Shown here in pieces: positions 13,501 to 29,391 of a stretch of DNA of 64,000 nucleotides. Made by a program: the position numbers and the translations under genes. The notes beneath the pieces are model-generated. The model saw only the letters and a program-made list of their open reading frames with translations, did no database searches and was not told where the DNA came from. Position 1 is the first letter of the stretch. The number at the start of each line of letters is the position of its first letter. Origin of the DNA: a virus (Duplodnaviria; Caudoviricetes); IMG/VR virus record IMGVR_UViG_3300021387_001083, positions 20,634 through 84,633 of that record. One strand, given 5' to 3'.

Positions 13501-16250
13501 GTATCGCTGGTGAAATGGATTGCATTCTTGAAAAAGATGGTAGATTTTATATAGTTGATTTTAAAGCTAGTAAAAATGATCCATCAAAAGATGCATTTTA
13601 CAAAACACAGCTAGCGTTCTATAAAGAAGCTTTACGTCAAATTCTTTCTGAAAATAATATAAATGATGTGCCTATAGAAACTCTCGGTTTTATATGGTTA
13701 TCTTCTACTTCGAAAAATGTATCATTAAAAACCACAGGTGATCTTGCGTTAAATCAACAAGTGTTAGGACCTTGGGCTGTTACTAAAGATGGTGTAACTC
13801 AATCTGTTGCAAACACTTATAATTGGGATGCTAGAATAAATAAGAAATATAACATAGAGGCTGATAACAATACTGGCACTGTTATTAAAACAGAATCTGA
13901 CGATGAAGGCATTGACTTTGATGATGACACTGATTCTGGTATGTTTAATTTAAATAATATGCCAGCCAGCAATGAAAGAAACAAACTTGTATCTGATGAA
14001 TCTAGTTATACTGCTGCAGATATCAACAAAGAAGTTGAATGGATAAATCAAGTTTTACCACAACTTTCAAGGAATGAACAACTCATGATTGTTGATGGTC
14101 TTATAAAAACATCTAAACGTGGTGTTTATGCTTATGGCCAGCTTAAAAACAATGTTATAAAATTGTCAAGACAAGGCGTCAGAGGTATTGGTTTCCACGA
14201 AGTATTTCATTATATGTTTAATCTTGTTTTGAGTAATGAAGAACAAAATGAAATCTTCAGAGAAGCTTCTAAGAAATGGAACAATATTACCAATCCTATA
14301 GATTTAGAAGAAAAACTTGCAGACGCTTTTCAAGATTATGCTATCGACCAAGTTTATGGTGGCAGAGGTATTTTACCGGCAATGAAAAGATTCTTTAACA
14401 AACTTCTCTTGTGGATAAAACATGGTAAGACTATTGTACAACAGATGGACAATCTTTATAAAGACTTGAATGCTGGCAGATATATTGATGCTGAGGAACA
14501 TCCTTTTGAAGGCGTTCGTTATCAAAAATATACATTTGAAATGCAACAAATAAAAGACCAAGCTATTGCTAATGGTACTTTTATGAAAGCTCCTAATGGT
14601 AAACCTACTAATCTTAATGAAAGACAATGGTTACAAGTTAGAACTAAAGCTTTTAAAAAATGGTTTGGCGATTGGGAAAGTGTTGCTGCTAGAATAGCTA
14701 ATGCTAAAGTTATTTGGGGTCATCCTGGTATAGGTAAAACAGAATACTATAAAAATAACAAAAATGTTATAGATTTTGATAGTGTTTATAAACCTAGAAT
14801 CAATAAAGAATTAGGACTTCCTGAAGGTGCTGAAGAACGTAAAAAATGGAGACGTGAGCATAGAGATGAATATAGGCAAAAGATTCTTTCTTTATTTGAT
14901 GAGGCTGTAGAGGATGCTAAGAAGCAGGGTAAACAACTATTAGTATCTGATATGGTTGTATTACAAGAAAGAGAAGATACTTTAGACCTTATTACTCAAA
15001 TGTCTGAAGATACTTTTGCTAAAAGAAGCATGCAACGTAATGAACCTTATGATGATAATAGAAAACTTTGGAAAACTGATATAGACGAAAGTATATCTAA
15101 AGTATATGATAAATCTAAAGTAGTTAATACAGAAAAGTATCTTTCTGAACTTTATGAAGATGCTAAAAATGTTTCTAAAGTAGTAGATGAAAATGGTGAA
15201 CCTTTAGTAGTTTATCATGGTACAACAGTTCCATTTACAACTTTTGATAAATCTAAACAAAATAGTAGATTTCCTTTTGGTTTAGGTACAAATGCTTTTT
15301 ATTTTACTTCTAAAAAAGAAAATGCTGAAAAAATAGCTATAGGTGTTCATAAAGGAGATTTTCTTATAAATAGTAAACCTTTATATAGCTCAGAATATCC
15401 TTGGGGGAATCCAAAATATATTAGTGAAGTTGTTGGATATAAAGTTGCTTCTGATTTTAAAAGTTTGATAGAAGGTGCAAAAGATTTGTATTCAAAAGAG
15501 GTAATAGAAGACTATTTTAATAAAATAAATAAACCTAATACTACTATTCAAGAAATACAAGAAAGTTCTGATAACGTTATGGCTGTATTTTTAAATATAA
15601 AAAATATGGACATAAAAGATTACGAAGGAAAGAATCTTATGGATACTTCTTCAAAAGAATTTGATTCTTTTGTAAATAATAGTAAAGAAGGTGGTAAATT
15701 AGCTAATGTTAAAGATGGTAATATGAAATTAGCTGATACTTATTTTGTTAAAGAACCAAATCAAATTAAATCAGCTACTGATAATGTAGGTACTTTTGAT
15801 CCAAACAATCCTGATATCAGATATTCTTTAGTCGATGATGTAGATCATGTAGGAAGACCTTTAACACCAAAAGCTTATCAACCTATGATTGATAATATGG
15901 TAAACAATCTGCAATATGGTACAGATACCAATATTGATAATCAGTGGGGTTTGTTTGTTGATGATTACTTTAGAAAATTCGGCATTGTAATTACTGGTCA
16001 TAAAGTTAGAGGCAAATACAAAGTTGACAGTGTCACAAGAGGTTTTGTAGCACCTGAAGCAACTTCAATTCAAAATGAAGATGGCACGATTAAATCTTTA
16101 AAAGAACTTAAAAATTCATCTGAATTTAGAAATGATTGGAACAATCTAACTGAATGGCAACAAACAGCTCTTGAAAATTCAGGTATGAATGAAGAGTTTT
16201 GGATAACTCTACCTAACGACATCAGAGATAACATATTACATTGCTTATAA
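7521..16250 (+). CDS. Giant polyvalent virion/ejection protein: N-terminal hydrophobic helices, PD-(D/E)xK nuclease, zincin HExxH, ART-like module with nested P-loop domain
   Basis: 2909 aa. GEMDCILEKDGRFYIVDFKAS (~13509-13570), FHEVFHY (HExxH 14196-14210), KAPNGKPTNLNERQWLQVRT..WFGDWE, GHPGIGKT (14718-14741), SKVVDENGEPLVVYHGT...FYFT...NQIKSATDNVGTFD. Confidence 0.7.
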   Translation: MATLTGLNTQQGQNREAGRVNGQPLPDNPTIKNIRPITFGEAQQMMWSPRGIKNLTTIELPEDYGESRFDKRAWAPSQLYDLNELRAQEQTGAEKLFNGIAKGAVLFGTTFVTGVAELPVALATSLERGDWSGMWDNAITQMAYDVSQSVENVLPNYYTSREQTDPWYQHIWSANFIGDKFLKNLGFTAGAIASSAVTNNWMNALKIPQVMATILRSQKAGRFASAAIGSALQAYTESSIEAKQGMEDFVKTKGQLLDAEHERRLQEIEMMFPLQGENVVNVNTDKQALIDEENQAYVNAKTRLAMDSSKVGNFVLRNEMPLLFASSLFQFGRMYANGFGTARHINNAVRKSATEYGLRNIPGAGLAKGVGNAFMEGSEEFNQSMIQNIAANYYKEDVDNFYNASLDPTLTENTVDFMRSAGRSISDTWNDSSAWEEGFIGALTGGLGMVRIGKNAQNADVKLGKIGLDGGIIGDIAQARKERVRQQNIIDQVNSILGSKKISAMVRGANRNQMEQNRMDFAAMQGDAKTFKDAEFSQMISDIITIDQVDGLQDYKAMISSVLSDEALADPKYLQDLIQSTEKDINGKKEGPFAGMDNAEIVERLKKTRETLLDAVDKYKKIKDKIDINTEGVFSEEQLGTLTWMRAKLANWDERQKTMTGELVEDLKKLKDVADKKNLEIPELVVKEMGKVDAAQMASDILAASISEQGLKSIPLSGTIDDLINSISNLKTRAGSFFDADVDVKNNVKVHDALANWINSVGVIMGADTTVDIKETIQKMKDLAAIHEDVVKYNIQLADYLEHPERLAEDMSKQEKKAAKKQRKKENKKTVDAYNNADTKEDKDEVYDNADDSGKAAIDKDHKNDPEYQFDKHKKEFRDAVAKSIDEQDDIDGSVKAAAKEAYDAVVENTNTSNSDNLYYPYRALAEYREPLRTDIALSGDDNAIAEFDTQNNWVDFVIDRAIHKIYDSNNFKDSFRTYEAPASAVQPARDDVYVRMNDPAEQAPATKLGTDLPENELDTPIAPISSESLKEANEVPPTTTEQTPGNSGDKKRTLMNTIPFYDPEAKKKQDYRPFWEVDMERELQGLRMSDEAVKTYIDNIKSTGWKHIPPTETPEYIATITPTEENINNGTYRGYYDIWNFLEEHGAFRYVDQGLLEHGDKIQFAKVPSISDNVLFFVKKLNDDSFQIIGVVSARNDVIGIQELRNILKNSKSSNIGIQYKTNDGSVSTEKRNEVVDVYDVETTVMDIYNGNVPIIDEERSLKDIPNGRDVKIAVIKNGSFTGQDIEGLPIEPVNTTNMEGYIVALVPTAANTYFPVTLRTAPVSQTLFTDDNEFAKEIQETVKELNKATTVEVASNLMVELRKSLYFDDDLKYEYYFRDSKGVTHQTKDKNDTITTIGFGSKKQDAENNRIREENKNRPEDQQVPTKSSMEYVDIDRHDETSLKKLQEYILSKVVYYNVTPRNLNDPKYNNKLINSDILTTNVESLEVRSSWFGANYYDPNTKKFVQAVRFPSPIRGQATPVGGVNNENLKVVIKGKNNKGTNFTWYVDETNGKRIYYRKSADSKDFKLINDNGAINNLNNVLYIKRRFIPQEVERFKTDDKIDRAGLSKRYSNYIYFQDQNDKNIFHDYYVYPRFGNEYGIFKIDLNNPDNISFIIRQNNSDEYTNVLQQYLAKRYIPKQEAVKEVAKPTVGVSKDIGTSLAENWNGRVDIDKTEDADDVLKSLNIKLNPEPITLFWYSKKDIVTKTKGYKLPGKDLFVVFDDKTNFVVNENQSGDLNVASYRIISKNGYSIRKQDVDKRDIKITPTSIERMLRKISEDLTENQEKILNGYEGLNKIVQTVTPLPTETEQYTKVKDVLKTNSERFKNEKGEVNRTSGQYQTKDGELYLRFHALSDKGNGSFETPSDKVESIPPNEPIKRGIAFDTFMREYLSSKDFDKAKVELGKLVSADKDYTLSDEELNNIKTFVEEQLKDYNIISKDLIVSGTFNNLRIAGEMDCILEKDGRFYIVDFKASKNDPSKDAFYKTQLAFYKEALRQILSENNINDVPIETLGFIWLSSTSKNVSLKTTGDLALNQQVLGPWAVTKDGVTQSVANTYNWDARINKKYNIEADNNTGTVIKTESDDEGIDFDDDTDSGMFNLNNMPASNERNKLVSDESSYTAADINKEVEWINQVLPQLSRNEQLMIVDGLIKTSKRGVYAYGQLKNNVIKLSRQGVRGIGFHEVFHYMFNLVLSNEEQNEIFREASKKWNNITNPIDLEEKLADAFQDYAIDQVYGGRGILPAMKRFFNKLLLWIKHGKTIVQQMDNLYKDLNAGRYIDAEEHPFEGVRYQKYTFEMQQIKDQAIANGTFMKAPNGKPTNLNERQWLQVRTKAFKKWFGDWESVAARIANAKVIWGHPGIGKTEYYKNNKNVIDFDSVYKPRINKELGLPEGAEERKKWRREHRDEYRQKILSLFDEAVEDAKKQGKQLLVSDMVVLQEREDTLDLITQMSEDTFAKRSMQRNEPYDDNRKLWKTDIDESISKVYDKSKVVNTEKYLSELYEDAKNVSKVVDENGEPLVVYHGTTVPFTTFDKSKQNSRFPFGLGTNAFYFTSKKENAEKIAIGVHKGDFLINSKPLYSSEYPWGNPKYISEVVGYKVASDFKSLIEGAKDLYSKEVIEDYFNKINKPNTTIQEIQESSDNVMAVFLNIKNMDIKDYEGKNLMDTSSKEFDSFVNNSKEGGKLANVKDGNMKLADTYFVKEPNQIKSATDNVGTFDPNNPDIRYSLVDDVDHVGRPLTPKAYQPMIDNMVNNLQYGTDTNIDNQWGLFVDDYFRKFGIVITGHKVRGKYKVDSVTRGFVAPEATSIQNEDGTIKSLKELKNSSEFRNDWNNLTEWQQTALENSGMNEEFWITLPNDIRDNILHCL

Positions 16251-19300: not shown

Positions 19301-20545
19301 ATTTTGGTATTTCTCCAATTTTGCAATGAATTCTTTTTCTTTGTCTATAAATTTCTTGTTTGCATATGTGTCGTATATTGAAGCTCTCTTTATTTCGGTG
19401 TTTATAATTTTCTGTAAGAGCTTTATATCTCTGTCTACACGTTCATCAAGATGAAACAAAGTTCTATTTACCTTTATAAGGTCAGACTTTAACACATCAG
19501 GATCTGTAAATACACTACTGGAAATTTTTTGGATGCTTGTTAAAGCTTCATCGACTAATTTTTGAATTTCATTTTCATCCAGTCTGGAAAATTTTTGCTT
19601 AAAGACCTTTTTTAGCCTTTCTGAGAGGTTTTTGACGTTATCAGGCACAATTCCTTCACTCTCCAAAAAATATTGTCTTATAAGGCTTGTAATCGCTTCA
19701 TGTGTTAAAGATTCCTTATTCCCATTGTATTTTTCATAATTCAAATCATATTCATCACCAAGAATAGCTTCTTCAAGATTGTTGTTTGAAATTATATTTA
19801 CAAGTCTTTTTGCAAGTTCTTCATTCTTTAAGCATTCGTATACGAAATGCGAGAATTCTTCAGGCAATTGCTGTTCTCCTCTTGAGCCTTTGGCAATCTT
19901 TATTATTGTTTTCAAACCATTAGCACCGTCTACCGCAGCCTTAAAGTCTATTTCGCCTGTTGCCAGTTCGTCTTGCAAATTGTCATAAGCATATACAGAT
20001 ACACCTGCCCTTTGCAATGCAGCTTTTATTTTATTGTTAAGTTCGTATGCTTTTTTAAAATCATCTGCAATTTTTCTTGTTGATTCTGAATAAGGTTCTA
20101 CAGTTATAAACAGTTTGCGTCCTTTTTCGGTAGTAACGTGGTTAAGAATAGCAACGTAATTACCTTTCAAAGAATCATTGTCGTTGAATTTGATTATTTT
20201 TTCAACAGCAGATATATAATTCTCTGTATTGTCGTCAATTTGTCTATCGGTATTTAACTGTTGCTTCAGGTATTTTTGTATGCTTTCTTCATCCAAGTAT
20301 TCTGCTAAATCAGTTTCTCTTAAAAGGTCACCAATATTCGGTTCGCCTTGTTCATTCAGTTCCACTTTCCCTTTCAGCAGTTCAAGATTAGCAGGACTTA
20401 CAAGTTTAAGATATGTATCCACAACCTTGTTTCGTCTGTCTGGAAATTTTTTAGTGAAGGAAAGCAGGTCATTGAATAACCTGCTCTCCTCTTCATTATT
20501 GGTAACAGCATTTGTCACCATCGGTTTAAGATTACATGAAATCAT
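16337..20545 (-). CDS. Large virion protein co-transcribed with the RNA polymerase (crAss-like RNAP-associated cargo protein)
   Basis: 1402 aa, largely helical, starts 2 nt after the RNAP stop. C-terminal HRLHGIYN..D...GRMAMIFRKW segment resembles crAss-like large cargo proteins. Confidence 0.55.
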   Translation of the reverse strand: MISCNLKPMVTNAVTNNEEESRLFNDLLSFTKKFPDRRNKVVDTYLKLVSPANLELLKGKVELNEQGEPNIGDLLRETDLAEYLDEESIQKYLKQQLNTDRQIDDNTENYISAVEKIIKFNDNDSLKGNYVAILNHVTTEKGRKLFITVEPYSESTRKIADDFKKAYELNNKIKAALQRAGVSVYAYDNLQDELATGEIDFKAAVDGANGLKTIIKIAKGSRGEQQLPEEFSHFVYECLKNEELAKRLVNIISNNNLEEAILGDEYDLNYEKYNGNKESLTHEAITSLIRQYFLESEGIVPDNVKNLSERLKKVFKQKFSRLDENEIQKLVDEALTSIQKISSSVFTDPDVLKSDLIKVNRTLFHLDERVDRDIKLLQKIINTEIKRASIYDTYANKKFIDKEKEFIAKLEKYQNTDEQRQALGIAMFVQKALNTFKSLSDRIKQVESNPNMSINEKCKVLREVKNYLNSYTNVLKEIKDAADDEAESTDSNYNIDTGFFKGEIKTIVDSAFLAASELEHAYDKSAKPLFIAFMKPFMGEEIVVPFGKNKGEKMSVDRFVNEAVTDISFLDRWLNSMTNSGDWMNKLFAVAVKQQNTKTRLETIDYQKKLIAAGLKLEKAGITDQSFVFERDNEGNLTLNFVSRYNWGQYRIDKNKFEQSFNDRFGEDRSKWTKAQRKERNVALKEWNSKHLQKDKKTKYNVPSDMYLNPEYDRIQNNEAMKEFYDTMVEMKELFDSWLPNTRQQTHTVPVIIKDLVERVKDAGNIKGAGIAIVESLKDEVIRRSDDVDFGMEGEIVYGDAFIKKRLTFDSTPINRLPIYYQKLRGDTFTKSGRLIQRGDNVNDVSTDIVSTMSAYAYMAVNYKNMNDIVDALEVARDFLDRNQEVQLTEGGKPIVEQIKFMGREFEQKALKQTGTRISQQRDDFFSAQVYGRYFADAGTITILGQTFDLSKLADLSNKLTSLNGLALNFLAGFANINQGVIMMDIDAKSKEFFNTRNVAHGDLAYAKYLPDYMLEIGSRAKTSMMALFDDEYNIMQEYDRKIRDIRFDRRQWFQKMFGSDFLYFTTNSGEHWMQHRTFFSLVDAEPLKDIEGNDVLITEAYDRKFIQEDGTLGDTDQGLGAKLVMKTGLHDRNGNRIITKEEAKTHGKLKENEVSQEEFTNYFSRKVSEINHRLHGIYNTEDMNAFQRTAIGRMAMIFRKWIVPAVNRRYRGIDYNFDLDEWTEGYYHTVGRLFGQIYRDIRNGEFNWELFKDELTDVEKANVRRAATEMATLGAIVLALILIDWDDDKDRPWAIKMMEYQLRRMRTEIGAITPTLLLPNELFKIIQSPTADVRTWQGIIDTFKLLNPANYSTEEEDLIRSGRYKGHTKAYKIFYQSPLFPFNNDWYNMLHPEETIPFYKR

Positions 20546-20547
20546 GA

Positions 20548-23500
20548 TTAATTCTTACATAAGTTTTTACTTTTTTCTATTTCTTTATCGATTGCTAGCA
20601 GTTGTATTTTAATAGCGTTACGACTTTCATCGTCTTCATTAGCTTCATAATCTGACAACAAAGCATTTCTTTCGTTGTAAAGTGCTTCTAAATCAGCATC
20701 ATTCTCTTCAACCTCAGTTGGAGTAGTCTTTATTTCAGGGGTATCTTCATGAGGATCGGAAATATTTTGCGGTGCTTGTGATGTTATTTGCTGTGTTGTA
20801 AATCTAGCTTTAAAAGCCTGTTCATCAGAAATGTCTCGACCGTTGATATCTCTAAATTTCCATCCTTTAGGAGCTAAAATACCACTTCTAATACCTAATT
20901 TCATTGCAGCTTTAATACCAGCCTCATCATAACCAGTTTGTCCACCACTTCTGATAGTCTCTATTTTAGTTTTTAGATTAGGATGATTTAACACTCTATT
21001 GAGTAAGTTATAGACATATTCATCAACTTGCTCTTGGGTGTATTTACCCTTTAAAGTATAGATACCATTACCTGCAATATTAAGAGATTTGGCATTTACC
21101 TCGTTTAATTGGTCAACTATAGAATTTACTAACTTATCAGTAATTTCTGGATTATTGGTATTAACAGGAATATATTTTTTACCATTCTCCAAAACAGCTT
21201 TTTTAGTAAGTCTTTCTCCAGCAGAGTTAAAATCAACAGCCAAAGCAATAGTAGCGTCAGCTTTGGCATTCTTAATGGTTCTTTCTCTATAACCATTAGA
21301 AGATTCTTCTTTAAATAAGGGCTCTGCAATAGTAGGTTCTTGAGAAGTAGGCTGACTGGTAAATTCTTCAAAATTCATAACTAACTGATTGGGGTCATGG
21401 TGATATTCCCTCATCAATCTGTTTCTAACTTCCATAAGAATTCTAGGAAACTCAGTACCCCATTTACCTTTATCTTGGGTATGAGTTAGAGTAGCATAGC
21501 CTGTTTCAAAAAGTTTTTGTCTAGCTTGAGGATTCTGTCTAAAAGACTGTTCAATTAAGACTTCCATAGTTTTAGAAGAGATTGCCTCCCAATCTTCTAA
21601 TATAGTCTTACTACTATAAGAGACCTTGCCCATAGGAATAGTCCTTCCAAGTTTTTTAATTTCTGAAGGATTTTTAGAAGCAAGTATTTTATCTATTATC
21701 TCATTACATTTTTCCTCATTTTTACGTCCTTCTTCACTTTCATCGTTTATATAGTATCCTCTAGCATAAGCAGCTTTAATAGCTTGAAATGCTTGCTCTA
21801 CAGAATCAAATGAAGTACTTGCTAAAAATTCTTCTACTCCATCAGAATCTAAAAATTCCCATTCAGATTTTAAATCAAAGAAATCATCATTAGTAAAACT
21901 TGAAAAGTCAAAAGGTCTTTCTGCAAAATTACTTAGTTCCACATTCTCTCCAGTACCTGCATAAATATTAATAACTTCTGTTTTACTAGGTTCTTTCATG
22001 TTATTTTTGTTATTATTTTTCTTTGCAACATATTTTGTATCAATGACATCAACAAGTTCACTAGGATTAGATTGAGCATCGTATACAAGAATATGTTTTG
22101 CTATACCAAGAGGATTGATTCTATCATATACAAGAGTTTCATCGTCAGATTCATCTTCATTCTTTTTATAATAAACATTTTCACCATTGGAAACGATTGT
22201 TATATAAGGATGATAAGTGTTTTCAGATCTATTGATACCCTTACGAAGTATCAATTGTTCAGCACCAGAGCCTCTGACATTTTTGACATCGACAAAAAGT
22301 TTGTCTTCAACATTGTATACAGTTTTGCCTTTATCGTTAACACTTGCTATATTTGAAAAGGTTTCTATAGGAACTTCAGGCGACAAAGATCTTTCATTCA
22401 AATTGTTTAGTATAAACATCTCCAAAAAGCCTGAAAGATTAAAATTGCCTTTTTCCATATTTCTGATACAGTCAATGTAATCACTGTTTACAGATTCTCT
22501 TGTAAACGTATTGGCAAGATGTATATATGTATCAGGACCGAAATCCCAAGCCGTCCTTAAACCTGCATAGAAAAACAGTTCGTCAGCAAGTTGTCTGATC
22601 TTAGGATCTTTCGACTCAAACAAAGAACCCCAATAATTACCTATAATCCATTTAGAACGATTGTTCAAATGTCCAACGTTCATAAAATTAATTGTCGGCG
22701 CATTACAGGATTTTGTTTCTGAAAAAGTTCTTAACCTGGAAGTAAACATGTTGTTTTTGAGTTCAGGCATTGTCATACTCATGGTTTTGAATTTAAATGG
22801 AAAATCATATACCCATTTTCTTAAAATGTCTGCTTTGGTCAATACTTTTCCTGTCACAGGGTCTTTTTTGCCTACTTCATAAACTTTACCGTCAATGTCT
22901 GTATAGCTAGAATAATAATTGTTTTCACCACCGAAAGCAGTAAATACATAAAGTCTTGAATCCCTATAAAATCTGTTTACTAACTTTGGACTTAATTTGC
23001 CGGTTTTAGTAATAGACCTTAACTGGTCAAGCAATTTCGGATACTGACTGTTAAATTCAGGAAAATAATCCTTGAACAATACATTGGCAGATTCAATACC
23101 AAACGTAAACGACGCTTGTATGGCAGGGAAAGGTGAGTCGGAAAACATACTTAAAACTTCATCAGGATTGCTGTCAATAAGCTGCATTATCCTGTCAAGC
23201 ATGTTTACACGGACAATTGACCTGACTCCTGTCAAAGGATACGATTTTGCTTCGGAATCTTGTAAAATTTGTCTTGCTACAGCAATCCTGTTCTCGGTAG
23301 TAGCTATATCAGGACCAGCAGCACCAGCAGAAGTATCTGCTTTACAGAACTTTACAATATCACCTAAGACTTTTGCTATCTTAAAGATATTATAATAAAG
23401 TTCTCCCATTGCAACTTGATCTTGAATATATTTATAATGTTCCTCATTATTAAGTTGATTGAGTTCCAATCTTCTTGCCTGAAGTTTATTATGAAACATA

Positions 23501-26500
23501 TTAGCTTTAGTCCAAGTATAACCACCAGCTTTAAGTTTGTCAAACGAGAAAGATTTTTGATCCTGTTCATTTAACATATTTTTCCATCTATAAAGAACTG
23601 TGGTTATTGCTGATTCTTTACTTTTATTGCCTAAGTTATCAAAATACTCTTTTGTCATTTCTCTTACAATAGGCTGTGTAAGTAACAGGTTTGTAGCATA
23701 CTTATCATGACCAATTCTAGAGTTTGTGATTGCAACGTCAGCAGTAAAAGTATTCTGGTTCGTATCAGACAGAGTAGGGTCTTTAACGTCATCTACAGAA
23801 CTGTCGACATGCTCAGATACATTTTTCGAAATGACCACATCGTGAGCACCAATCCTTTCATGTAATGAGTTATTTTCCCATTCGTCGATTTTGTATACAA
23901 ACTCAGGTTTTATTGCAACATTGGTATGCTGCAGCAAAGCGTGATTTACACTCTGGTCAGCATTAATGCCGATCATCATACCTGAAGATGAAATTCTGGA
24001 ATGGTTCTTAACCCAAACAACAGGTGACAATGGATTGTCAACTGTTTTGTACTTGTCAAGTATTTTATCCAACTCTTTGAGATCTAAAGTCTCAATTTTT
24101 TTGAAAAGATCTTCATCGGATGTTACATTAAATTGTTCTTTTAAGGCTTCAATTTGATCTAAAGGAACGTTTTCTGAAAGTCTTACAACACGAGCAGATT
24201 TCTTTTGTTCATTAAAACCACCTGGATTCAACAGTTTACCCATTGTTTCGGAGTTTGTAAGTATACCAAAGACAAAATCGAGTATAATGTTGTTTCTTGC
24301 TTTACGAGCTTTCTTAAAGTCTTCATTTTGATCCAAAGCAGATTTACTGAAATCGTATTGTATCTTTCTCACCTGACCGTCTTCGAGAGTCTCAAGACCA
24401 GGAAGCATAAGATACAAGTGGTCAATATCAAAGTCAGAACCTGAAATAGTAACCCAATCAGCAGGAAGGATTATCGATGAACCTAAAGATTGAGGTAGAA
24501 AACCCTTTATTTTTAAAGGTAGCATTGAAAATTTATCTTCAGTAGGAATTCTGAATCCTACAATGTTAAGCAATTCATCACGATACTCTTCAGGAATGTC
24601 TTCAATTTTTAAAATACCGTTTTCGTCAGTATGTAAATATTGCAATAAGTCTGAATTATATACAGGAAGATAGCATTCTGCATAGGCAATATGACTTTTT
24701 GGATTTCCTGTAACACTGCCTTCTTCAGATTTCTTATAGGCTTCAAAAGTCTTGTATTTGTCTTTCATTGATTGATTTTCATTGAATTCCTTTTCATTAA
24801 GAATAAGTTCACCTTTTGAATTGGTAAATCTTATTGCAAGTTCTTCATCATAACCGAAAGCTGAAATCTGTACAGCACTACCACCATCAATCTGTTGTTT
24901 TGTCACATTATTTTTGATGATGCTGTATAACAGACTTTGAACCTTCCTACTTTGAACAGGATCTCCCAAAGGTATGTTGAAATATTTTTCACCAGTTTCG
25001 GGGTCGGTGACAAGAGTACACGCCTCCAAAAGATCTGGAGAAAATGTAGCACTTGACATAACTTGGTCTTTAAGTAATCTCTCAAGACTTTCAATATCAG
25101 TAAATTCATCTTTTACCGCTTTAAAGTCCATCATTATGTTTGCTGTACGTACATAATGATAAAGTCTTTTTGCATCTTTGAATGGTAAGAGTTTTTTACC
25201 AGTTTCTTTGTCTATTGTAAAAGCTACAGGAACACCAAAGATATTTACTGAATCTCCAGCAAAATAAGACATACCAGGAATTTCAACCAAAGTGTCATCA
25301 CTTATATCAGCAGTGATTAACTTTGTTAACTGGGTACCAAGCAACTGTGTCTTATCAAACAAGTGTTCGGGATTTGGAGTCTGAATTACATAATCATGTA
25401 AATCAAGAGTATGTACAAATTTGGGATCTGCTTGTACTAAATTATTCAGTTGAGACACAATGGTCTTTTTTGTCTTGTTAAAATCACCGGTATCTTCAAC
25501 AGAACTTAAGTCTATGACATGGTTAGCACCATCTTTAATTGCTGAACTGAAAACATATACGTCAACATTGTCACCGCCAAATTCATTTAAAGCAGAAAGA
25601 ACAGGAGAAGTATTTGCCATAGAAGCAAGCTGGGCATACATTGTAAGCAATACTGTTTCAGAAGTTTTTATCTGTAACGGTGCTTTAAAATGATGTTCGT
25701 TTCCAGCAGCATCCGTCCAAGCTATATCTTGGTCTGTATATACATACGGTTTTATAGCATTATAGACAGTAAGAAAATCTTGCATATCAAACTCACCTTT
25801 CATAAATCTTTGATAGGATTCTTCTTTCTGTTCGTTCCAATCATTAGACATTATAGCAATCTTTCTATAAGAAGATAATTTTCTAAATGATTGTGCATCA
25901 GTAATATTGTTTCCTTTATAAAGACTTAATGCAAGTTTTCTTTCAGCAGGATTCTTCAAATAAATGTTAAGTGTTCTTTCAATATCTTCATAAGAAGGAG
26001 AAGGTTTTTCTGAATCTTTTAAAAATACTGCTTTTTGATAACCGTCAGAAACTTTTTTACCGTTCCATGTGGCATTTACATTCAAACGCATACCAGGAGC
26101 ATGAAATTGTTTTGCTCTTTTTATCCATTCTTCAAGATTTTTATAGAAAGCAAGATCTCCTGTAATCAATTCGATCATTTCAGCTTGTGCATACATGGAA
26201 TTGTAAAAGAATTCTCTAAAAGCTTCTGTAGTAGGATCTGTTTTGTTTATATTATCTTTAGCATTATTTATCATATTGCTTATTGATTCACTTTCCTGAT
26301 AAAGATCACCAAGATAATCCAAAGCTGGTCTGACAACACTGATTATTTTTGTGATTTTGTCCATATTTACATTGGAATAATCTATGTTGTTTCTCAAAAC
26401 ATAAGCAGTCTTGTCCTTATTTAGCACTATATAGGGTTCTAGAAAGTTATAGAGAATGTTTTCGATATTTGAAAACAACAAATTGTTACGAATGGTTCCT

Positions 26501-29391
26501 CCATTGTGTAAAGTTACAAGTGTTTCCCAAGAATCTCTACTTAATAATCCACTGTTTATTAATCTATTATATAAATCCTCATTAAACGGAAACTCAGCAA
26601 TGGCGTTGATATCAATCAATTTATTCTCATCTTGTTTGACAATATTAAGTGCTGTTAACAAAGGATTCATAAAATGCCTTTCTCTACTTATAGTACCAAG
26701 AGTTTTGTTTACACCTGTCGAACTATTGTCAAGAAGTCCCCAATTTCTCCAATCGTCCATTGCTTTTCTAAAGTCACTTTCAACATATTTCAAGACTTCT
26801 TGTTTTATGATGTTTTTCAAATCGGTATTCGAAAAGTCTTCTTTAGCGTCCTTTATAAGATTTATGATATGATATTCTCCATTATCGTCTTTTACATTCA
26901 AACCAGGGAAAAACCTGAAAGAATCTCCAGTCTTATCATAACTTGCTATAAGATCTTTGTCTTGCAACACGCCTTCTTTGACAAGTCTGGCTCTTTCTCT
27001 GACTTCCATTATACGATTATATTCCTGCTTGATGATATTTACGAATTTATCAAGAATCTTATCTTGCGCAGTACCGTTTTCATCAGATAAATATTTCGGC
27101 AAAGTCATAACATAACCAAATCCTGCTTCAGCTGGTAAAGGTAAATAATATCTTGCCCAGTTTGATTCAGTTTCACCGTCAAAAGTCCTATATTGTGCTA
27201 TCTGTGATATAGCAGCTTCCCTATCTCCGTAAGTTTCAAAATCTTTTGTTACACCACTGTTTTTTTGCTGCAATACAACGCCGATATCAAACATTTCCTT
27301 GAAGTCAGTGAGACAACGCCTCAAATCAGAATCATCGCCAACATTACCTTCCAGGAGTTTAAAAATATCAATGTTCCATTCATTTGAATTCTTGTCATAA
27401 AACCAATCATATTTTTTATATTTTTCATTAATATAATAATCAAAGTAATTGGAATATCTGTCTTGAAACCCTTCGGGAGCATTTTTATTTTTCATTTCCT
27501 GTCTTAATATACGCATAAGTCTAAAGATAAAGTTATCTTTTGCGTGTGCATATCTTGTTGTGTCTCCTTCTCTGATATTGGCTTCTATAGCGTTTTTCAC
27601 AGAACTCTGTAAATATCTAGCTAACGTTCTATAACGTTTACCGAATTCATTTATAAGATCGAATCCTTCTTTATAAGCATTGATTTTATTTTCACCTATT
27701 GTATTTGCTATCGTAAAAATACTAGAACAAATGGCTTCGTAAGGATCGTATGTCTTGTAGTGAACTCTTTCTCCTTCTGCTATTTCTACAGGATTACCTT
27801 TTTTATCTATCGCATATATGTTTGTAAGTATGTTTTCAAGATCATCAGAATCAACATCGATACCTAGTGAATTTAACATGATAGTCATGTTCTTGAATAA
27901 AGGTTGCCCTTTCATTACAGAGTTACGTCTTGCTTCCAGCAATTCACGAGTTATGCCTTCTTTTTGTGCATTTTTATCGGAATATGTATTTAACGATGCC
28001 TGTAAAAGTTTTACGATTTTCTTTGCATTTTCAGGTATAATGCTACGGTCTTTGCCATATACAGACATGTTTTCATCACCAATGACATCACCATTTTGAT
28101 AATTGTTACGCCAAGTATCATATAAAGTTTTTATTGGCTCAGAATCATTAAGATTTTTTATACCAATTTTAATAATTCCATTAGCATCAACATTTATAAG
28201 TTCTTTATGATATTTTATGAAAGCGCAACACATGTCGTTAAATAAAGCAGTGAATTTTTTACCGGCATCTTGTTGGTCTTTGACATTAGGACTTTTAGTT
28301 TCTATTTCAGAAATCAATTGTTGAACCCAAGGGTAATATTTTTTCATTTCCTTTAATAATGGAAGCATATCTGTGTCATCAACCATTGATGTCAACCAAT
28401 TTATCAATGCTGTATGAGCTTCATTAAAATCAACAAAACGCGGGTTTCCAAGGTCGTCATATTTAACATTTCCGTTCTTGTCAACTTGATATATATTATC
28501 AAGCATAAGTCTTGTGATTTTCGATAAAGAAGCTTCGTTAGACACCTCAGAATAATGGTTCATCCAATGGTCTTTCTGATGCATTCTTTCACTGTCATCT
28601 TTATTTGCGTAAGTATCTTCAATAGTATCGTCAGAATTGGAATCTGCTTGAACATCTTCCACATTATCATTATTGATATCTATAGAGATATTCATACTCC
28701 AACGAATCATATTACATGCTTGTTCAGCAAGAGTCGTGAAGTTGTTTACTATTTTTACCTCTGCATCTTTTGCATAAAGAATTTTATTTCTGATTGCAGT
28801 TATTTCTTTCTCCGAAGGTTCTGTGATTTTAGAAGTTTCGGCTTCAACAAGTTTGTCAGTCTTTGTAACGATATGACGTATCATTTTGGCTTTTATATCG
28901 TTGAAAATCGCACTTGGTCCACCTAACGATCTTATAGCCTCAGATACAGACATTCCTGGATTTTTTGCTTGTTCGTTGATAACTATTTTTTGAAATAATT
29001 TATATAAAGATGTAACTCGGTCCTGTCTTATGACAAACGGTATTTCTCTTCGTAAAGCTCTAAGGCGTTCTATTGCATCAGTAGATTCAGCTCTTAAACC
29101 AAACTTTGAAAAATCCACTTTCAGATAAGGTTCTGCAATCGTAAATTTCGGAAGTTTTGTGTCTTTCTTTAACAAATCTACAAGATAAGCCGTATTTGTG
29201 CGCTGTGCTTCAGTTGTGTTATGTGACTTTATAAAGTCTATTAATTCATCTTCTTTAGGAAAATCATCCATTGTTTTCTTATTGTCTCTTTGCCATTGTA
29301 CAATATATGCAGCAATGGCTCTATTAGGCAATTTTTTTGAAATTTTTGGATAATCTTTCAAATTGTTTATTCTTATACAATATGGTAACAT
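20548..29391 (-). CDS. Virion-packaged single-chain DNA-dependent RNA polymerase with C-terminal NADAR and SLOG-like domains
   Basis: 2947 aa. Catalytic GSDFDIDHLY (DFDID at 24421-24435) preceded by GFRIPTEDKFSM. C-terminal SVEQAFQAIK..EIKKLGR..KWG (NADAR-like) and RTIKN.ADATIA..LNIAGN..SGGQTG (SLOG-like). Confidence 0.85.
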   Translation of the reverse strand: MLPYCIRINNLKDYPKISKKLPNRAIAAYIVQWQRDNKKTMDDFPKEDELIDFIKSHNTTEAQRTNTAYLVDLLKKDTKLPKFTIAEPYLKVDFSKFGLRAESTDAIERLRALRREIPFVIRQDRVTSLYKLFQKIVINEQAKNPGMSVSEAIRSLGGPSAIFNDIKAKMIRHIVTKTDKLVEAETSKITEPSEKEITAIRNKILYAKDAEVKIVNNFTTLAEQACNMIRWSMNISIDINNDNVEDVQADSNSDDTIEDTYANKDDSERMHQKDHWMNHYSEVSNEASLSKITRLMLDNIYQVDKNGNVKYDDLGNPRFVDFNEAHTALINWLTSMVDDTDMLPLLKEMKKYYPWVQQLISEIETKSPNVKDQQDAGKKFTALFNDMCCAFIKYHKELINVDANGIIKIGIKNLNDSEPIKTLYDTWRNNYQNGDVIGDENMSVYGKDRSIIPENAKKIVKLLQASLNTYSDKNAQKEGITRELLEARRNSVMKGQPLFKNMTIMLNSLGIDVDSDDLENILTNIYAIDKKGNPVEIAEGERVHYKTYDPYEAICSSIFTIANTIGENKINAYKEGFDLINEFGKRYRTLARYLQSSVKNAIEANIREGDTTRYAHAKDNFIFRLMRILRQEMKNKNAPEGFQDRYSNYFDYYINEKYKKYDWFYDKNSNEWNIDIFKLLEGNVGDDSDLRRCLTDFKEMFDIGVVLQQKNSGVTKDFETYGDREAAISQIAQYRTFDGETESNWARYYLPLPAEAGFGYVMTLPKYLSDENGTAQDKILDKFVNIIKQEYNRIMEVRERARLVKEGVLQDKDLIASYDKTGDSFRFFPGLNVKDDNGEYHIINLIKDAKEDFSNTDLKNIIKQEVLKYVESDFRKAMDDWRNWGLLDNSSTGVNKTLGTISRERHFMNPLLTALNIVKQDENKLIDINAIAEFPFNEDLYNRLINSGLLSRDSWETLVTLHNGGTIRNNLLFSNIENILYNFLEPYIVLNKDKTAYVLRNNIDYSNVNMDKITKIISVVRPALDYLGDLYQESESISNMINNAKDNINKTDPTTEAFREFFYNSMYAQAEMIELITGDLAFYKNLEEWIKRAKQFHAPGMRLNVNATWNGKKVSDGYQKAVFLKDSEKPSPSYEDIERTLNIYLKNPAERKLALSLYKGNNITDAQSFRKLSSYRKIAIMSNDWNEQKEESYQRFMKGEFDMQDFLTVYNAIKPYVYTDQDIAWTDAAGNEHHFKAPLQIKTSETVLLTMYAQLASMANTSPVLSALNEFGGDNVDVYVFSSAIKDGANHVIDLSSVEDTGDFNKTKKTIVSQLNNLVQADPKFVHTLDLHDYVIQTPNPEHLFDKTQLLGTQLTKLITADISDDTLVEIPGMSYFAGDSVNIFGVPVAFTIDKETGKKLLPFKDAKRLYHYVRTANIMMDFKAVKDEFTDIESLERLLKDQVMSSATFSPDLLEACTLVTDPETGEKYFNIPLGDPVQSRKVQSLLYSIIKNNVTKQQIDGGSAVQISAFGYDEELAIRFTNSKGELILNEKEFNENQSMKDKYKTFEAYKKSEEGSVTGNPKSHIAYAECYLPVYNSDLLQYLHTDENGILKIEDIPEEYRDELLNIVGFRIPTEDKFSMLPLKIKGFLPQSLGSSIILPADWVTISGSDFDIDHLYLMLPGLETLEDGQVRKIQYDFSKSALDQNEDFKKARKARNNIILDFVFGILTNSETMGKLLNPGGFNEQKKSARVVRLSENVPLDQIEALKEQFNVTSDEDLFKKIETLDLKELDKILDKYKTVDNPLSPVVWVKNHSRISSSGMMIGINADQSVNHALLQHTNVAIKPEFVYKIDEWENNSLHERIGAHDVVISKNVSEHVDSSVDDVKDPTLSDTNQNTFTADVAITNSRIGHDKYATNLLLTQPIVREMTKEYFDNLGNKSKESAITTVLYRWKNMLNEQDQKSFSFDKLKAGGYTWTKANMFHNKLQARRLELNQLNNEEHYKYIQDQVAMGELYYNIFKIAKVLGDIVKFCKADTSAGAAGPDIATTENRIAVARQILQDSEAKSYPLTGVRSIVRVNMLDRIMQLIDSNPDEVLSMFSDSPFPAIQASFTFGIESANVLFKDYFPEFNSQYPKLLDQLRSITKTGKLSPKLVNRFYRDSRLYVFTAFGGENNYYSSYTDIDGKVYEVGKKDPVTGKVLTKADILRKWVYDFPFKFKTMSMTMPELKNNMFTSRLRTFSETKSCNAPTINFMNVGHLNNRSKWIIGNYWGSLFESKDPKIRQLADELFFYAGLRTAWDFGPDTYIHLANTFTRESVNSDYIDCIRNMEKGNFNLSGFLEMFILNNLNERSLSPEVPIETFSNIASVNDKGKTVYNVEDKLFVDVKNVRGSGAEQLILRKGINRSENTYHPYITIVSNGENVYYKKNEDESDDETLVYDRINPLGIAKHILVYDAQSNPSELVDVIDTKYVAKKNNNKNNMKEPSKTEVINIYAGTGENVELSNFAERPFDFSSFTNDDFFDLKSEWEFLDSDGVEEFLASTSFDSVEQAFQAIKAAYARGYYINDESEEGRKNEEKCNEIIDKILASKNPSEIKKLGRTIPMGKVSYSSKTILEDWEAISSKTMEVLIEQSFRQNPQARQKLFETGYATLTHTQDKGKWGTEFPRILMEVRNRLMREYHHDPNQLVMNFEEFTSQPTSQEPTIAEPLFKEESSNGYRERTIKNAKADATIALAVDFNSAGERLTKKAVLENGKKYIPVNTNNPEITDKLVNSIVDQLNEVNAKSLNIAGNGIYTLKGKYTQEQVDEYVYNLLNRVLNHPNLKTKIETIRSGGQTGYDEAGIKAAMKLGIRSGILAPKGWKFRDINGRDISDEQAFKARFTTQQITSQAPQNISDPHEDTPEIKTTPTEVEENDADLEALYNERNALLSDYEANEDDESRNAIKIQLLAIDKEIEKSKNLCKN

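What the first reader, a model, noticed from the sequence alone, without database searches (positions are those of the whole stretch)
20805..21980. Virion RNA polymerase carries C-terminal NADAR and permuted SLOG-like domains
After the RNAP body come a NADAR/YbiA-like domain (~21410-21980: LSNF..F.SVEQAFQAIK..KNPSEIKKLGR..W..M..LIEQSF.QN...KL..TG..L.H...KWG..LMEVR) and a SLOG-like domain (~20805-21305). In the latter the blocks run Y.ERT..N.ADATI, then LNIAGN, then RSGGQTG.D.AG, which is permuted relative to the cpYpsA/'MoCo carrier' order as I recall it (SGGQTG first). Established: some NADAR proteins remove ADP-ribose from guanine in DNA (DarT1 antitoxins), and SLOG domains bind nucleotide/NAD-derived ligands. 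Inference: the injected RNAP brings its own ADP-ribose eraser and nucleotide sensor or sponge, as an anti-defence payload delivered at the moment of infection.
Basis: partly seen in the sequence, partly recalled or inferred. Interest (0 to 1): 0.8.

Follow-up and report, generated by a model that had tools for sequence, protein, structure and literature searches.

The report
Swappable NADAR–SLOG cassette on virion polymerase
A crAss-like phage from ruminant gut carries, spliced in frame near the end of its packaged RNA polymerase, a 1.2-kb two-domain cassette (an ADP-ribose-removing NADAR enzyme plus a rearranged SLOG nucleotide-binding domain) that a 94%-identical sister phage lacks, so it is most likely an optional, ready-made counter-defence tool injected with the DNA; its activity is untested.

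Summary
ORF 20548-29391 (-) is a 2947-aa crAss-type virion RNA polymerase (PDB 6VR4 hit, DFDID motif). Residues 2469-2665 are a NADAR domain (Pfam E 1e-11; Z 15.6 to P. nicotianae NADAR). Residues 2688-2865 are a cpYpsA-type SLOG domain (Pfam E 7e-14; Z 9.3 to 3IMK). The SGGQTG block is moved from the front to the back relative to both the Pfam model and 3IMK.

New here:
- Both domains form one in-frame 404-codon cassette (window 20770-22010). A ~94% nt-identical phage contig has 29 bp there instead. The conserved acidic C-terminal tail follows the cassette in both.
- Each module recurs separately, at 89-95% nt identity, in giant genes whose polymerase core is only ~27% identical in protein.
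- Of the 120 best SLOG-bearing giant proteins, 99 also carry the polymerase catalytic segment.

So the polymerase serves as a carrier for swappable NAD/ADP-ribose-processing modules. The injected counter-defence reading is plausible but untested. A rival is self-protection against the phage's own co-packaged ART-PolyVal, which the sister contig also lacks.

Phage NADAR-SLOG fusions and anti-DarT1 NADARs are published. I found no paper reporting the polymerase fusion. This scan has noted it before on other genomes. Verdict: new variant of a known kind.

The parts
20548..29391 (-). Gene for the 2947-aa crAss-type virion RNA polymerase (catalytic subunit) that carries the cassette
   Evidence: ORF list and translation. 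6VR4 hit at E 4.8e-22. tblastn gives 33% identity over 96-100% of the core to genes annotated 'putative RNA polymerase' in crAss001 and the PhiCrAssBcn phages.
24421..24435 (-). DFDID catalytic motif of the polymerase (residues 1653-1657)
   Evidence: Regex on P0001. It lies inside the stretch aligned to 6VR4 (query 1606-1684).
20770..22010 (-). In-frame NADAR-SLOG cassette: 1241 bp, replaced by 29 bp in sister contig L008 (net 404 codons)
   Evidence: blastn: window 30000..22011 matches L008 5392..13396 at 93.9%, and window 20769..16001 matches L008 13426..18193 at 94.5%. At protein level P0242 aligns to P0001 1-2482 and 2875-2947 only.
21397..21987 (-). NADAR domain (residues 2469-2665), His-type. 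E2532, K2539, G2582-R2583, W2601, H2637, D2640 and W2644 are conserved in the family.
   Evidence: Pfam PF08719. Z 15.6 to 8BAU and Z 13.5 to 2B3W. Motif alignment to T4 gp30.3 is.
21331..21396 (-). Flexible linker between the two domains
   Evidence: pLDDT is below 50 for model residues 209-223. The nucleotide matches of the NADAR module (to L009) and the SLOG module (to L010) overlap at 21298-21355.
20797..21330 (-). SLOG domain of cpYpsA type (residues 2688-2865), with block order C-A-B
   Evidence: Pfam PF12694. PHROG 10774 colinear. Z 9.3 to 3IMK. Profile against 3IMK E 1.3e-10.
21205..21291 (-). SLOG block C: Y2701..RT..NA..D.T...AGE.LT2729 (helix, strand, then the second nucleotide-binding loop)
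   Evidence: Invariant columns Y17, R20, T21, N24, A25, D28, T30, G41, E42, L44, T45 in alignment A2. Aligns to 3IMK 56-122.
21058..21084 (-). SLOG block A: LNIAGNGIY strand and loop (residues 2770-2778)
   Evidence: N87, A89, G90, N91 and G92 are invariant in A2. Aligns to the LNIAG of 3IMK near its C-terminus.
20917..20952 (-). SLOG block B: RSGGQTGYDEAG glycine-rich loop (residues 2814-2825). It is N-terminal in 3IMK and Pfam cpYpsA but comes last here.
   Evidence: 90-97% conserved columns. Aligns to 3IMK 3-42. Pfam profile positions 1-33 map to window 20857-20955.
20551..20769 (-). Acidic, predicted-helical C-terminal tail (residues 2875-2947), kept in relatives that lack the cassette
   Evidence: 93% identical to P0242 residues 2476-2548. 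No Pfam family above cut-off.
14537..15820 (+). ART-PolyVal cassette in the convergent 2909-aa cargo protein (context, candidate functional partner)
   Evidence: Pfam PF18760 at residues 2556-2759. A 1284-bp in-frame segment is absent from L008.

Best explanation
Window 20770-22010 is an optional, laterally exchangeable two-domain cassette. It sits in frame between the core of a crAss-type virion RNA polymerase and the polymerase's conserved acidic tail. In relatives this polymerase is packed into the particle and ejected into the cell, so both domains would arrive ready-made with the first DNA.

Most likely roles:
- The NADAR domain (His-type, like T4 gp30.3/AdfN) is an ADP-ribosyl N-glycohydrolase. 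It would strip ADP-ribose from guanine in nucleic acid, or cleave a soluble ADP-ribose derivative.
- The SLOG domain binds or cleaves an NAD/ADP-ribose-derived nucleotide.
Together they would blunt a host defence based on ADP-ribosylation or NAD-derived signals at the very start of infection.

Shown here: domain identity, fold, conserved pocket motifs, the circular permutation, the cassette boundaries, dispensability for the polymerase, and module exchange between unrelated backbones.

Inferred: virion delivery (by homology), catalysis, substrates, and the defence system targeted.
For: Domain identity.

Conserved residues:
- NADAR: E2532 and K2539, the equivalents of the E/K pair that Schuller et al. 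(PMC11543638) found essential; also GR2583, W2601, and the family motif LTHTQDxxKWG.
- The His in that motif aligns with the His of T4 gp30.3 'LKHS'. T4 gp30.3 is a proven anti-DarT1 DNA ADP-ribosylglycohydrolase (PMC11825919, PMC11125620).
- SLOG: GGQTG.DE and GE.LT are 90-100% conserved.

Accessory nature:
- P0242, P0243 and P0244 are 85-95% identical over P0001 residues 1-2462/2482, yet lack the cassette and keep the tail.
- Other relatives carry a different payload at the same site: an SF1 helicase plus DUF7831 in P0245, and SLOG alone in P0011.

Mobility:
- The NADAR module is 94.8% nt identical in L009, and the SLOG module 88.7% in L010. The polymerase cores there are about 27% identical in protein.
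- Contigs from four ruminant-gut runs break recurrently at 20799, 21424 and 21973, and summed depth over the cassette far exceeds the flanks.

Breadth:
- 99 of the 120 best SLOG-bearing giants also have the polymerase catalytic segment.
- Five cultured PhiCrAssBcn phages carry the SLOG domain at the N-terminus of their polymerase, and cr126_1 carries a NADAR there.

Delivery: the polymerase proteins of PhiCrAss001 were detected in virions (PMC10172136).

Published prediction: viral YpsA-like SLOG domains fused to NADAR or Macro are proposed to process ADPr-derived signals (PMC9503650).
Against: - No activity, ligand or virion proteomics exists for this phage.
- The host is unknown, and I did not test whether it has DarT1-like or Thoeris-like systems.
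- The domain does not match Pfam Phage_30_3 (PF08010) at E <= 1, so it is not a member of the tested AdfN family.
- T4 gp30.3 and YbiA hydrolyse G-ADPr in vitro yet did not rescue cells from DarT1 toxicity (PMC11125620), so fold and residues do not predict the in-vivo target.
- The SLOG domain is much more conserved (55-70% identity) than the polymerase cores it rides on (22-25%). That could point to a more general role than strain-specific counter-defence.
- The direction of the event (gain here or loss in the sister phages) is unresolved. P0003 has the same architecture at 40% core identity.
Confidence: 0.6

Rival explanations
1. Self-protection or tuning of the phage's own writer. The NADAR (with SLOG) reverses or limits ADP-ribosylation by the co-packaged ART-PolyVal domain on the neighbouring cargo protein. 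This would keep the phage's own DNA, RNA or polymerase clean while host targets are modified, like an antitoxin delivered with its toxin.
For: - ART-PolyVal lies at residues 2556-2759 of the convergent 2909-aa protein.
- Sister contig L008 lacks both the ART cassette (window 14537-15820) and the NADAR-SLOG cassette.
- ART-PolyVal shares one polypeptide with NADAR in P0002/L009 and with SLOG in P0004-P0007/L010.
- All 4 loci with NADAR or SLOG also have ART-PolyVal: the window, L012, L009 and L010.
- Precedents: the DarT1-NADAR and YarT-YbiA toxin-antitoxin pairs (PMC11543638, PMC11125620).
Against: - ART-PolyVal occurs without NADAR or SLOG in the part of the contig seen for L011 and L013.
- Only 5 of the 120 SLOG-bearing giants have ART-PolyVal in the same protein.
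- Seven loci are too few, and they are related, so the co-occurrence is not statistically meaningful.
- The substrate of ART-PolyVal is unknown.
Confidence: 0.2
2. Template-cleaning or RNA-end chemistry tied to transcription. Tethered to the polymerase, the NADAR removes base adducts from the template, or from NAD- or ADPr-linked RNA 5' ends. The SLOG domain senses or processes the released nucleotide and modulates early transcription. On this view the fusion to the polymerase is functional, not just a ride into the cell.
For: - SLOG-bearing giant proteins are overwhelmingly polymerase-bearing (99 of 120).
- The SLOG domain is far better conserved than the polymerase core.
- P0122 combines an AlkB-like 2OG-Fe(II) oxygenase with NADAR and SLOG, a base-damage-reversal theme.
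- RNA ligase, a metallophosphoesterase and HicA lie directly upstream.
Against: - The polymerase evidently works without the cassette in sister phages.
- The modules sit at the N-terminus, the middle or the C-terminus in different proteins, which argues against a fixed geometric coupling to the active site.
- Free-standing versions are common in other phages such as ICP1 and other Vibrio and Pseudomonas phages.
Confidence: 0.12
3. The domains are decayed passengers, or serve only a structural or packaging role (bulk cargo or spacer), with no catalytic or ligand-binding function.
For: - One ruminant-gut contig (run X2) has an in-frame 351-nt deletion that removes most of the SLOG core next to an intact NADAR, so degraded copies do exist.
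- The cassette is dispensable.
Against: - The reading frame is intact.
- The model is very confident (pLDDT 89.7).
- The nucleotide-binding and catalytic motifs are near-invariant across more than 100 homologues.
- The SLOG domain keeps 55-70% identity across backbones that are only 22-25% identical, which indicates strong purifying selection.
Confidence: 0.05

Closest known systems
Phage NADAR anti-DarT1 factors: T4 gp30.3/AdfN, and the NADARs of Bas32 and Bas60 (PMC11825919, PMC11125620); structural references 8BAU and 2B3W (PMC11543638)
   Same: Same fold (Z 15.6 and Z 13.5). Conserved Glu/Lys pair, GR and Trp pocket residues. His in the last-strand motif, as in T4-type phage NADARs. Encoded by a phage.
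   Different: Not a free-standing early protein: it is a domain inside a 2947-aa virion polymerase. No match to Pfam Phage_30_3. About 60 extra residues sit between the SNF and VEQAFQAIK motifs compared with YbiA. Activity and target are untested.
cpYpsA / 'MoCo carrier' SLOG family (Pfam PF12694; PDB 3IMK), and the viral YpsA-like SLOG domains fused to NADAR, Macro or DUF4326 described by Iyer et al. 2022 (PMC9503650)
   Same: Homologous by sequence (profile E 1.3e-10). Same Rossmann-like fold. Same GGQTG.D and G(G/E)..LT loops and LNIAG strand. The NADAR-SLOG pairing in phages is already described, with a predicted role in processing ADPr-derived signals.
   Different: Block order is C-A-B here and B-C-A in 3IMK and the Pfam model, so the Gly-rich loop comes last. 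From my memory of the YpsA sequence (order A-B-C, not tested here) this would be a third rotation. The review calls viral versions 'typically standalone'. Here, and in most giant homologues, the domain rides on a polymerase.
crAss-type virion RNA polymerase: phi14:2 gp66 (PDB 6VR4), and the PhiCrAss001 polymerase proteins detected in virions (PMC10172136)
   Same: Homologous core with the DFDID motif. Same gene order: polymerase, then a ~1400-aa subunit, then a convergent giant cargo gene.
   Different: gp66 and crAss001 carry no NADAR or SLOG. Here a 404-residue cassette is inserted before the C-terminal tail.
Polyvalent proteins of phages and conjugative elements (Iyer et al. 2017, PMC5512222)
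   Same: Giant virion-associated proteins that string together several effector domains for delivery with the DNA. An ART-PolyVal domain is in the same locus. Domains are shuffled between relatives.
   Different: That paper mentions neither SLOG, NADAR nor crAss-type polymerases. No processing peptidase was detected in this protein.

Membership tests
NADAR superfamily (PF08719) | Profile score above Pfam's gathering threshold | tested here: met
   45.7 bits against a cut-off of 35.1, E 1.1e-11. 46.8 bits in the six-frame search.
NADAR superfamily (PF08719) | YbiA-like alpha+beta fold | tested here: met
   Model pLDDT 89.7. Z 15.6, rmsd 2.2 A, 146 residues aligned to 8BAU. Z 13.5 to 2B3W.
NADAR superfamily (PF08719) | Conserved Glu and Lys seven residues apart in the first core helix (E43/K50 of P. 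nicotianae NADAR; E88/K95 of E. coli C7 NADAR), essential for hydrolysis | tested here: met
   VEQAFQAIK: E2532 (43 of 58 family members) and K2539 (49 of 57). The same motif aligns to T4 'LEGFLQGCK'. Residue-level superposition on 8BAU was not possible with these tools.
NADAR subfamilies (YbiA = Glu, DarT1-associated BC4488 = Asp, T4-type phage = His in the last strand) | Identity of the last-strand catalytic residue | tested here: inconclusive
   The family motif is LTHTQDxxKWG, with H2637 in 48 of 74 members. It aligns with T4 gp30.3 'LKHS' (hhalign E 0.008 but probability 4.9%). HMMER pairs this His with the His that follows the Glu in YbiA 'LVEHT'. His-type is therefore the likeliest class, but the register is uncertain by one residue.
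T4 gp30.3 / AdfN family (Pfam Phage_30_3, PF08010) | Match to the family profile | tested here: not met
   PF08010 is not reported at E <= 1 for this protein. Some homologues of the cassette do carry it in precomputed annotation: P0010, P0020, P0202, P0216, P0233, P0241.
DarT1-associated NADAR antitoxins (DarG1) | Adjacent DarT1 gene, and a basic N-terminal extension implicated in ssDNA binding | tested here: not met
   No DarT gene is adjacent: the domain is internal to the polymerase gene. The match to G. lovleyi DarG1 (8BAT) is weaker (Z 8.3) and starts at chain residue 48, past its extension.
cpYpsA SLOG family (PF12694) | Profile score above the gathering threshold, and homology to 3IMK | tested here: met
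   52.1 bits against a cut-off of 26.2. Profile A2 against 3IMK gives E 1.3e-10. Z 9.3.
cpYpsA SLOG family (PF12694) | Colinear order of the family model (SGGQTG loop first, LNIAG strand last) | tested here: not met
   Profile positions 46-125 precede positions 1-33 in the protein. 3IMK residues 3-42 align to the end of the domain and residues 51-136 to its start.
cpYpsA SLOG family (PF12694) | Conserved nucleotide-binding loops: the Gly-rich loop after strand 1, and the G-x-x-L-T loop after strand 3 | tested here: met
   G2816, G2817, Q2818, T2819, G2820, D2822 and E2823 are 93-97% conserved. G2725, E2726 and T2729 are 90-100% conserved.
YpsA proper (PF06908) | Match to the family profile | tested here: not met
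   No match at E <= 10 anywhere in the 84.6-kb record.
crAss-type virion RNA polymerase (phi14:2 gp66-like) | Sequence homology to gp66, including the catalytic DxDxD loop | tested here: met
   6VR4 at E 4.8e-22. DFDID at residues 1653-1657. 33% identity over the whole core to annotated Crassvirales polymerases.
crAss-type virion RNA polymerase (phi14:2 gp66-like) | Packaged in the virion and ejected into the host | not testable with these tools
   Known for phi14:2 and PhiCrAss001 (PMC10172136). Here it is inferred from homology and gene order only.
Polyvalent proteins (Iyer et al. 2017) | A giant protein combining several unrelated effector domains, typically with a processing peptidase, in a virion-gene context | tested here: inconclusive
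   Several effector domains are present: NADAR and SLOG here, ART-PolyVal and PD-(D/E)XK on the neighbour. No peptidase domain was found in P0001.

The most novel reading that the evidence does not exclude
The phage version of the cpYpsA SLOG fold is a distinct, third circular permutant (block order C-A-B) that has become the standard plug-in module of crAss-type virion polymerases. Tethering it, together with the NADAR, to the polymerase is functional. The NADAR would clear ADP-ribosylated guanines from the template or transcript as the first genes are transcribed. The SLOG domain would sense or destroy the released NAD/ADPr-derived nucleotide and feed back on early transcription. That would amount to transcription-coupled reversal of a host DNA-modifying defence.
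Probability: 0.12. Interest if true: 0.8.

Novelty: new variant of a known kind. Interest (0 to 1): 0.55.

Why it matters
Crassvirales are among the most abundant gut phages, and what their huge packaged proteins do beyond transcription is largely unknown. This locus shows the virion polymerase doubling as a delivery vehicle for interchangeable NAD/ADP-ribose-processing modules. It also supplies a natural with/without pair: about 94% identical genomes that differ by a clean 404-codon cassette. In addition, five cultured PhiCrAssBcn phages carry the SLOG module on their polymerase while sister isolates do not. Together these make the function of phage SLOG domains directly testable; no experimental characterisation of them turned up in my literature searches. 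The role of injected NADARs becomes testable in the same way. The data also document domain-level gene exchange between polymerases that are otherwise only about 27% identical.

Tried and rejected
- YpsA topology: Pfam YpsA (PF06908) found nothing in the record. YpsA structure 2NX2 did not appear in either VIA list. So the claim that the order also differs from classical YpsA rests on my memory of the YpsA sequence, not on a test.
- Single-sequence phmmer of the NADAR against the PDB found only YbiA and not 8BAU. The 8BAU relation comes from the fold search.
- hhalign of alignment A1 against T4 gp30.3 gave a motif-consistent alignment but low probability (4.9%). I use it only as a lead for the His register.
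- Literature searches for NADAR, SLOG, YbiA or DUF1768 together with crAss-like, Crassvirales or polyvalent found no paper describing the fusion. The search for experimentally characterised phage SLOG anti-defence proteins also found none. The library lacks most subscription-journal papers.
- Base composition of the cassette (32.9% GC) does not differ from the polymerase gene (33.3%), so it gives no clue to origin.
- Sequencing runs: only assembled contigs were available, so I could not test whether cassette-plus and cassette-minus forms coexist in one sample. No contig bridging a cassette-less junction was seen in the four runs laid, which proves nothing.
- P0011's contig could not be fetched because the sample file was too large.
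- Not done: a host search for DarT or Thoeris (no host handle), and complex prediction (it scores protein partners only, so it cannot test ligand binding).
Full report
WHAT IS THERE

The window is the last 64 kb of an 84.6-kb IMG/VR virus record, estimated 84% complete. ORF 20548-29391 on the minus strand encodes a 2947-aa protein, P0001. Its core is homologous to the crystallised virion RNA polymerase gp66 of Cellulophaga phage phi14:2 (6VR4, E 4.8e-22). It carries the DFDID catalytic loop at residues 1653-1657. It is about 33% identical over its whole core to the genes annotated 'putative RNA polymerase' in crAss001, the PhiCrAssBcn isolates and uncultured Crassvirales. A 1402-aa gene follows it, then a convergent 2909-aa gene, which is the usual crAss 'transcription/cargo block'.

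THE TWO DOMAINS

Pfam finds NADAR (residues 2483-2647, E 1.1e-11) and cpYpsA SLOG (E 7.5e-14, two stretches), both above the curated cut-offs. PHROGs finds phrog_1017 and phrog_10774, the latter colinear over residues 2693-2858.

An AlphaFold2 model of residues 2462-2865, built with 120 homologues, is confident: mean pLDDT 89.7, with only a 15-residue linker below 50. In an all-against-representatives structural search:
- The first domain matches P. nicotianae NADAR with bound ADP-ribose (8BAU: Z 15.6, rmsd 2.2 A, 146 residues) and E. coli YbiA (Z 13.5).
- The second domain matches the 'putative molybdenum carrier protein' 3IMK, the structural representative of cpYpsA (Z 9.3, rmsd 2.9 A, 108 residues).
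- The next unrelated Rossmann-like folds score Z 7 or less.

THE PERMUTATION

Three tests agree.
- The Pfam cpYpsA model hits in two pieces in swapped order: profile positions 46-125 upstream, positions 1-33 downstream.
- phmmer aligns the end of the domain (RSGGQTGYDEAG...APKGW) to 3IMK residues 6-42, and its start (Y.ERT..N..DATIA...) to 3IMK residues 56-122.
- A 15-sequence profile reproduces this at E 1.3e-10, including the shared LNIAG strand.
The structural aligner, which is sequential, covers only model 227-341 against 3IMK 49-157.

I label the blocks A (LNIAG strand), B (GGQTG loop) and C (Y..RT..N..D.T / G..LT). Then 3IMK is B-C-A and this domain is C-A-B. From memory, classical YpsA is A-B-C, which would make this a third rotation. 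I could not test that: PF06908 gives no hit and 2NX2 did not surface.

The C-A-B order is not special to this protein. Every homologue I aligned shares it: more than 100 giants, short metagenomic proteins, and the 'molybdenum carrier' proteins of ICP1 and other Vibrio and Pseudomonas phages.

ARE THE POCKETS INTACT?

In the NADAR, the Glu and Lys of VEQAFQAIK (E2532, K2539) are conserved. They match the E/K pair that Schuller et al. showed to be needed for guanine de-ADP-ribosylation (PMC11543638). Also conserved are the GR of KKLGR, W2601, and a family motif LTHTQDxxKWG. The His of that motif lines up with the His of T4 gp30.3 'LKHS'. Published work describes T4-type phage NADARs as having His where YbiA has Glu and DarT1-linked NADARs have Asp (PMC11125620, PMC11825919). 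The register is uncertain by one residue, because HMMER pairs this His with the His after the Glu of YbiA. The domain does not match Pfam Phage_30_3. It is therefore a His-type NADAR but not a member of the tested AdfN family.

In the SLOG domain, both loops that bind nucleotide in this fold class are near-invariant: GGQTG.DE and GE.LT.

THE CASSETTE

A search with the polymerase core found three much closer relatives, P0242, P0243 and P0244. In that core-region search they are 98%, 92% and 91% identical to the query, and about 400 residues shorter, with no Pfam domains. P0242 aligns to P0001 residues 1-2482 at 94.9% and to residues 2875-2947 at 93%, with nothing in between.

At DNA level:
- Window 30000..22011 matches contig L008 at 93.9%.
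- Window 20769..16001 matches L008 at 94.5%.
- The 1241 bp between them (20770-22010) are replaced by 29 bp, a net difference of exactly 404 codons.
So NADAR plus SLOG form one in-frame cassette. It sits between the polymerase core (...KYVAKKNN) and a conserved acidic tail (DPHEDTPEIK...), and the polymerase plainly exists without it.

The direction of the event is open. P0003, whose core is 40% identical, has NADAR-SLOG at the same place. P0011 has SLOG alone there. P0245 has an SF1 helicase plus DUF7831 there. The site is a hot spot for payloads.

MODULE EXCHANGE

The NADAR module (window 21298-21979) is 94.8% nt identical to part of a 3479-aa gene on L009. The SLOG module (20787-21355) is 88.7% identical to part of a 4621-aa gene on L010. 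Nothing else in the polymerase gene aligns at nucleotide level to either locus; the only other nucleotide matches are short patches in the ART cassette of the neighbouring giant gene. The polymerase cores of those proteins are about 27% identical to ours. In those proteins the module lies N-terminal to the core, next to an ART-PolyVal domain.

Contigs from four ruminant-gut runs, one of which may be the source sample, pile up far more deeply over the cassette than over its flanks. They break repeatedly at 20799, 21424 and 21973. That fits the same modules sitting in many different contexts. These are contigs only, so the evidence is soft.

HOW GENERAL IS IT?

- A search with the C-terminal 508 residues returned 1829 giant proteins of 1620-5158 aa.
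- Of the best 120, 99 also contain a BLAST-detectable polymerase catalytic segment with a D[FYW]DxD motif. The SLOG lies C-terminal to that motif in 90 and N-terminal in 9.
- The SLOG domain keeps 55-70% identity where the cores are 22-25% identical.
- Conversely, among the 120 closest polymerase homologues only P0003 and P0011 carry it.
- In GenBank phages, five of the 25 PhiCrAssBcn isolates have the SLOG at the N-terminus of the polymerase, and crAss001 itself does not. cr126_1 has a NADAR at the N-terminus of its giant protein, which is annotated only as 'DUF1768 domain-containing protein'. cr10_1 has a SLOG at the C-terminus of a ~4460-aa protein.

FUNCTION

Published work establishes several pieces:
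- Diverse phage NADARs remove ADP-ribose from guanine in DNA and defeat DarTG1 (PMC11825919).
- Viral YpsA-like SLOG domains are often fused to NADAR, Macro or DUF4326 and are predicted to sense or degrade ADPr-derived signals (PMC9503650).
- crAss polymerase proteins are virion cargo (PMC10172136).
Taken with the cassette's dispensability, variability and mobility, the best reading is an optional counter-defence payload that enters with the polymerase (confidence about 0.6). The specific target is unknown: DarT1-like DNA ADP-ribosylation, Thoeris-type signals, or something else.

The main rival is self-protection against the phage's own ART-PolyVal. That domain sits on the convergent cargo protein. 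It is itself a 1284-bp in-frame cassette that L008 also lacks. All four loci with NADAR or SLOG also have ART-PolyVal, while two loci have ART-PolyVal without them. This is suggestive but far too few loci to weigh.

A third reading, functional coupling to transcription, fits the striking SLOG-polymerase association. It is weakened by the variable position of the modules and by free-standing versions in other phages.

NOVELTY

The domains, their pairing in phages and the delivery logic are all published. I found no paper describing the fusion to the crAss-type virion polymerase, the cassette polymorphism or the C-A-B order. Earlier agents of this scan reported similar polymerase add-ons on other genomes and reached the same class. 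I file it as a new variant of a known kind. The with/without phage pairs are its most useful product.

Noticed in passing
window 14537-15820 (+), inside ORF 7521-16250: The ART-PolyVal region of the convergent 2909-aa cargo protein is itself an in-frame 1284-bp cassette, absent from the 94%-identical contig L008. Two short patches (14538-14681 and 15165-15223) are 93-96% nt identical in L009 and L010, and they flank an insert of variable length.
   Followed up: partly
window 7521-16250 (+), protein residues 1977-2043: The same giant protein has a PD-(D/E)XK nuclease domain (Pfam E 7e-07) upstream of the ART-PolyVal. Relatives L012 and L013 share the PDDEXK plus ART-PolyVal arrangement, and L013 adds LPD23.
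   Followed up: no
window 20915-21265 (-), seen in run X2 contig record 21: A 2.5-kb ruminant-gut contig joins 20914 directly to 21266. This is an in-frame 351-nt deletion that removes most of the SLOG core, including the GGQTG loop, next to an intact NADAR module. It appears to be a degraded copy in another context.
   Followed up: no
window 21997-21999 (-), residue M2465: The cassette begins almost exactly at an ATG (…KNN-MKEPSKTEVINIYAG…) that reads like the N-terminus of a free-standing NADAR protein. This suggests the cassette derives from an independent gene fused in frame.
   Followed up: no
P0122 (684 aa, JGI metagenome fragment): One protein has an AlkB-like 2OG-Fe(II) oxygenase directly followed by NADAR and SLOG, a combination suggesting reversal of base damage on nucleic acids.
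   Followed up: no
P0071, P0012, P0073 compared with window 16337-20545 (-): In some relatives the 1402-aa second 'polymerase subunit' is fused to the C-terminus of the polymerase protein. In others the N-terminal ~600 residues of the convergent giant are fused to its front. The cargo genes are split and fused in many ways.
   Followed up: no
PDB 8S05 chain A ('Conserved protein', 387 aa), residues 87-111: A solved but unnamed protein shares the segment ...QIKQIRSGGQT with the SLOG profile (E 0.21). It may be another solved relative of this domain.
   Followed up: no
L012 and L013 (relatives' loci): The replication modules upstream of the polymerase carry homing elements: GIY-YIG and LAGLIDADG genes, and an intein with HNH in the ribonucleotide reductase. 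This shows heavy traffic of mobile elements in this phage group.
   Followed up: no
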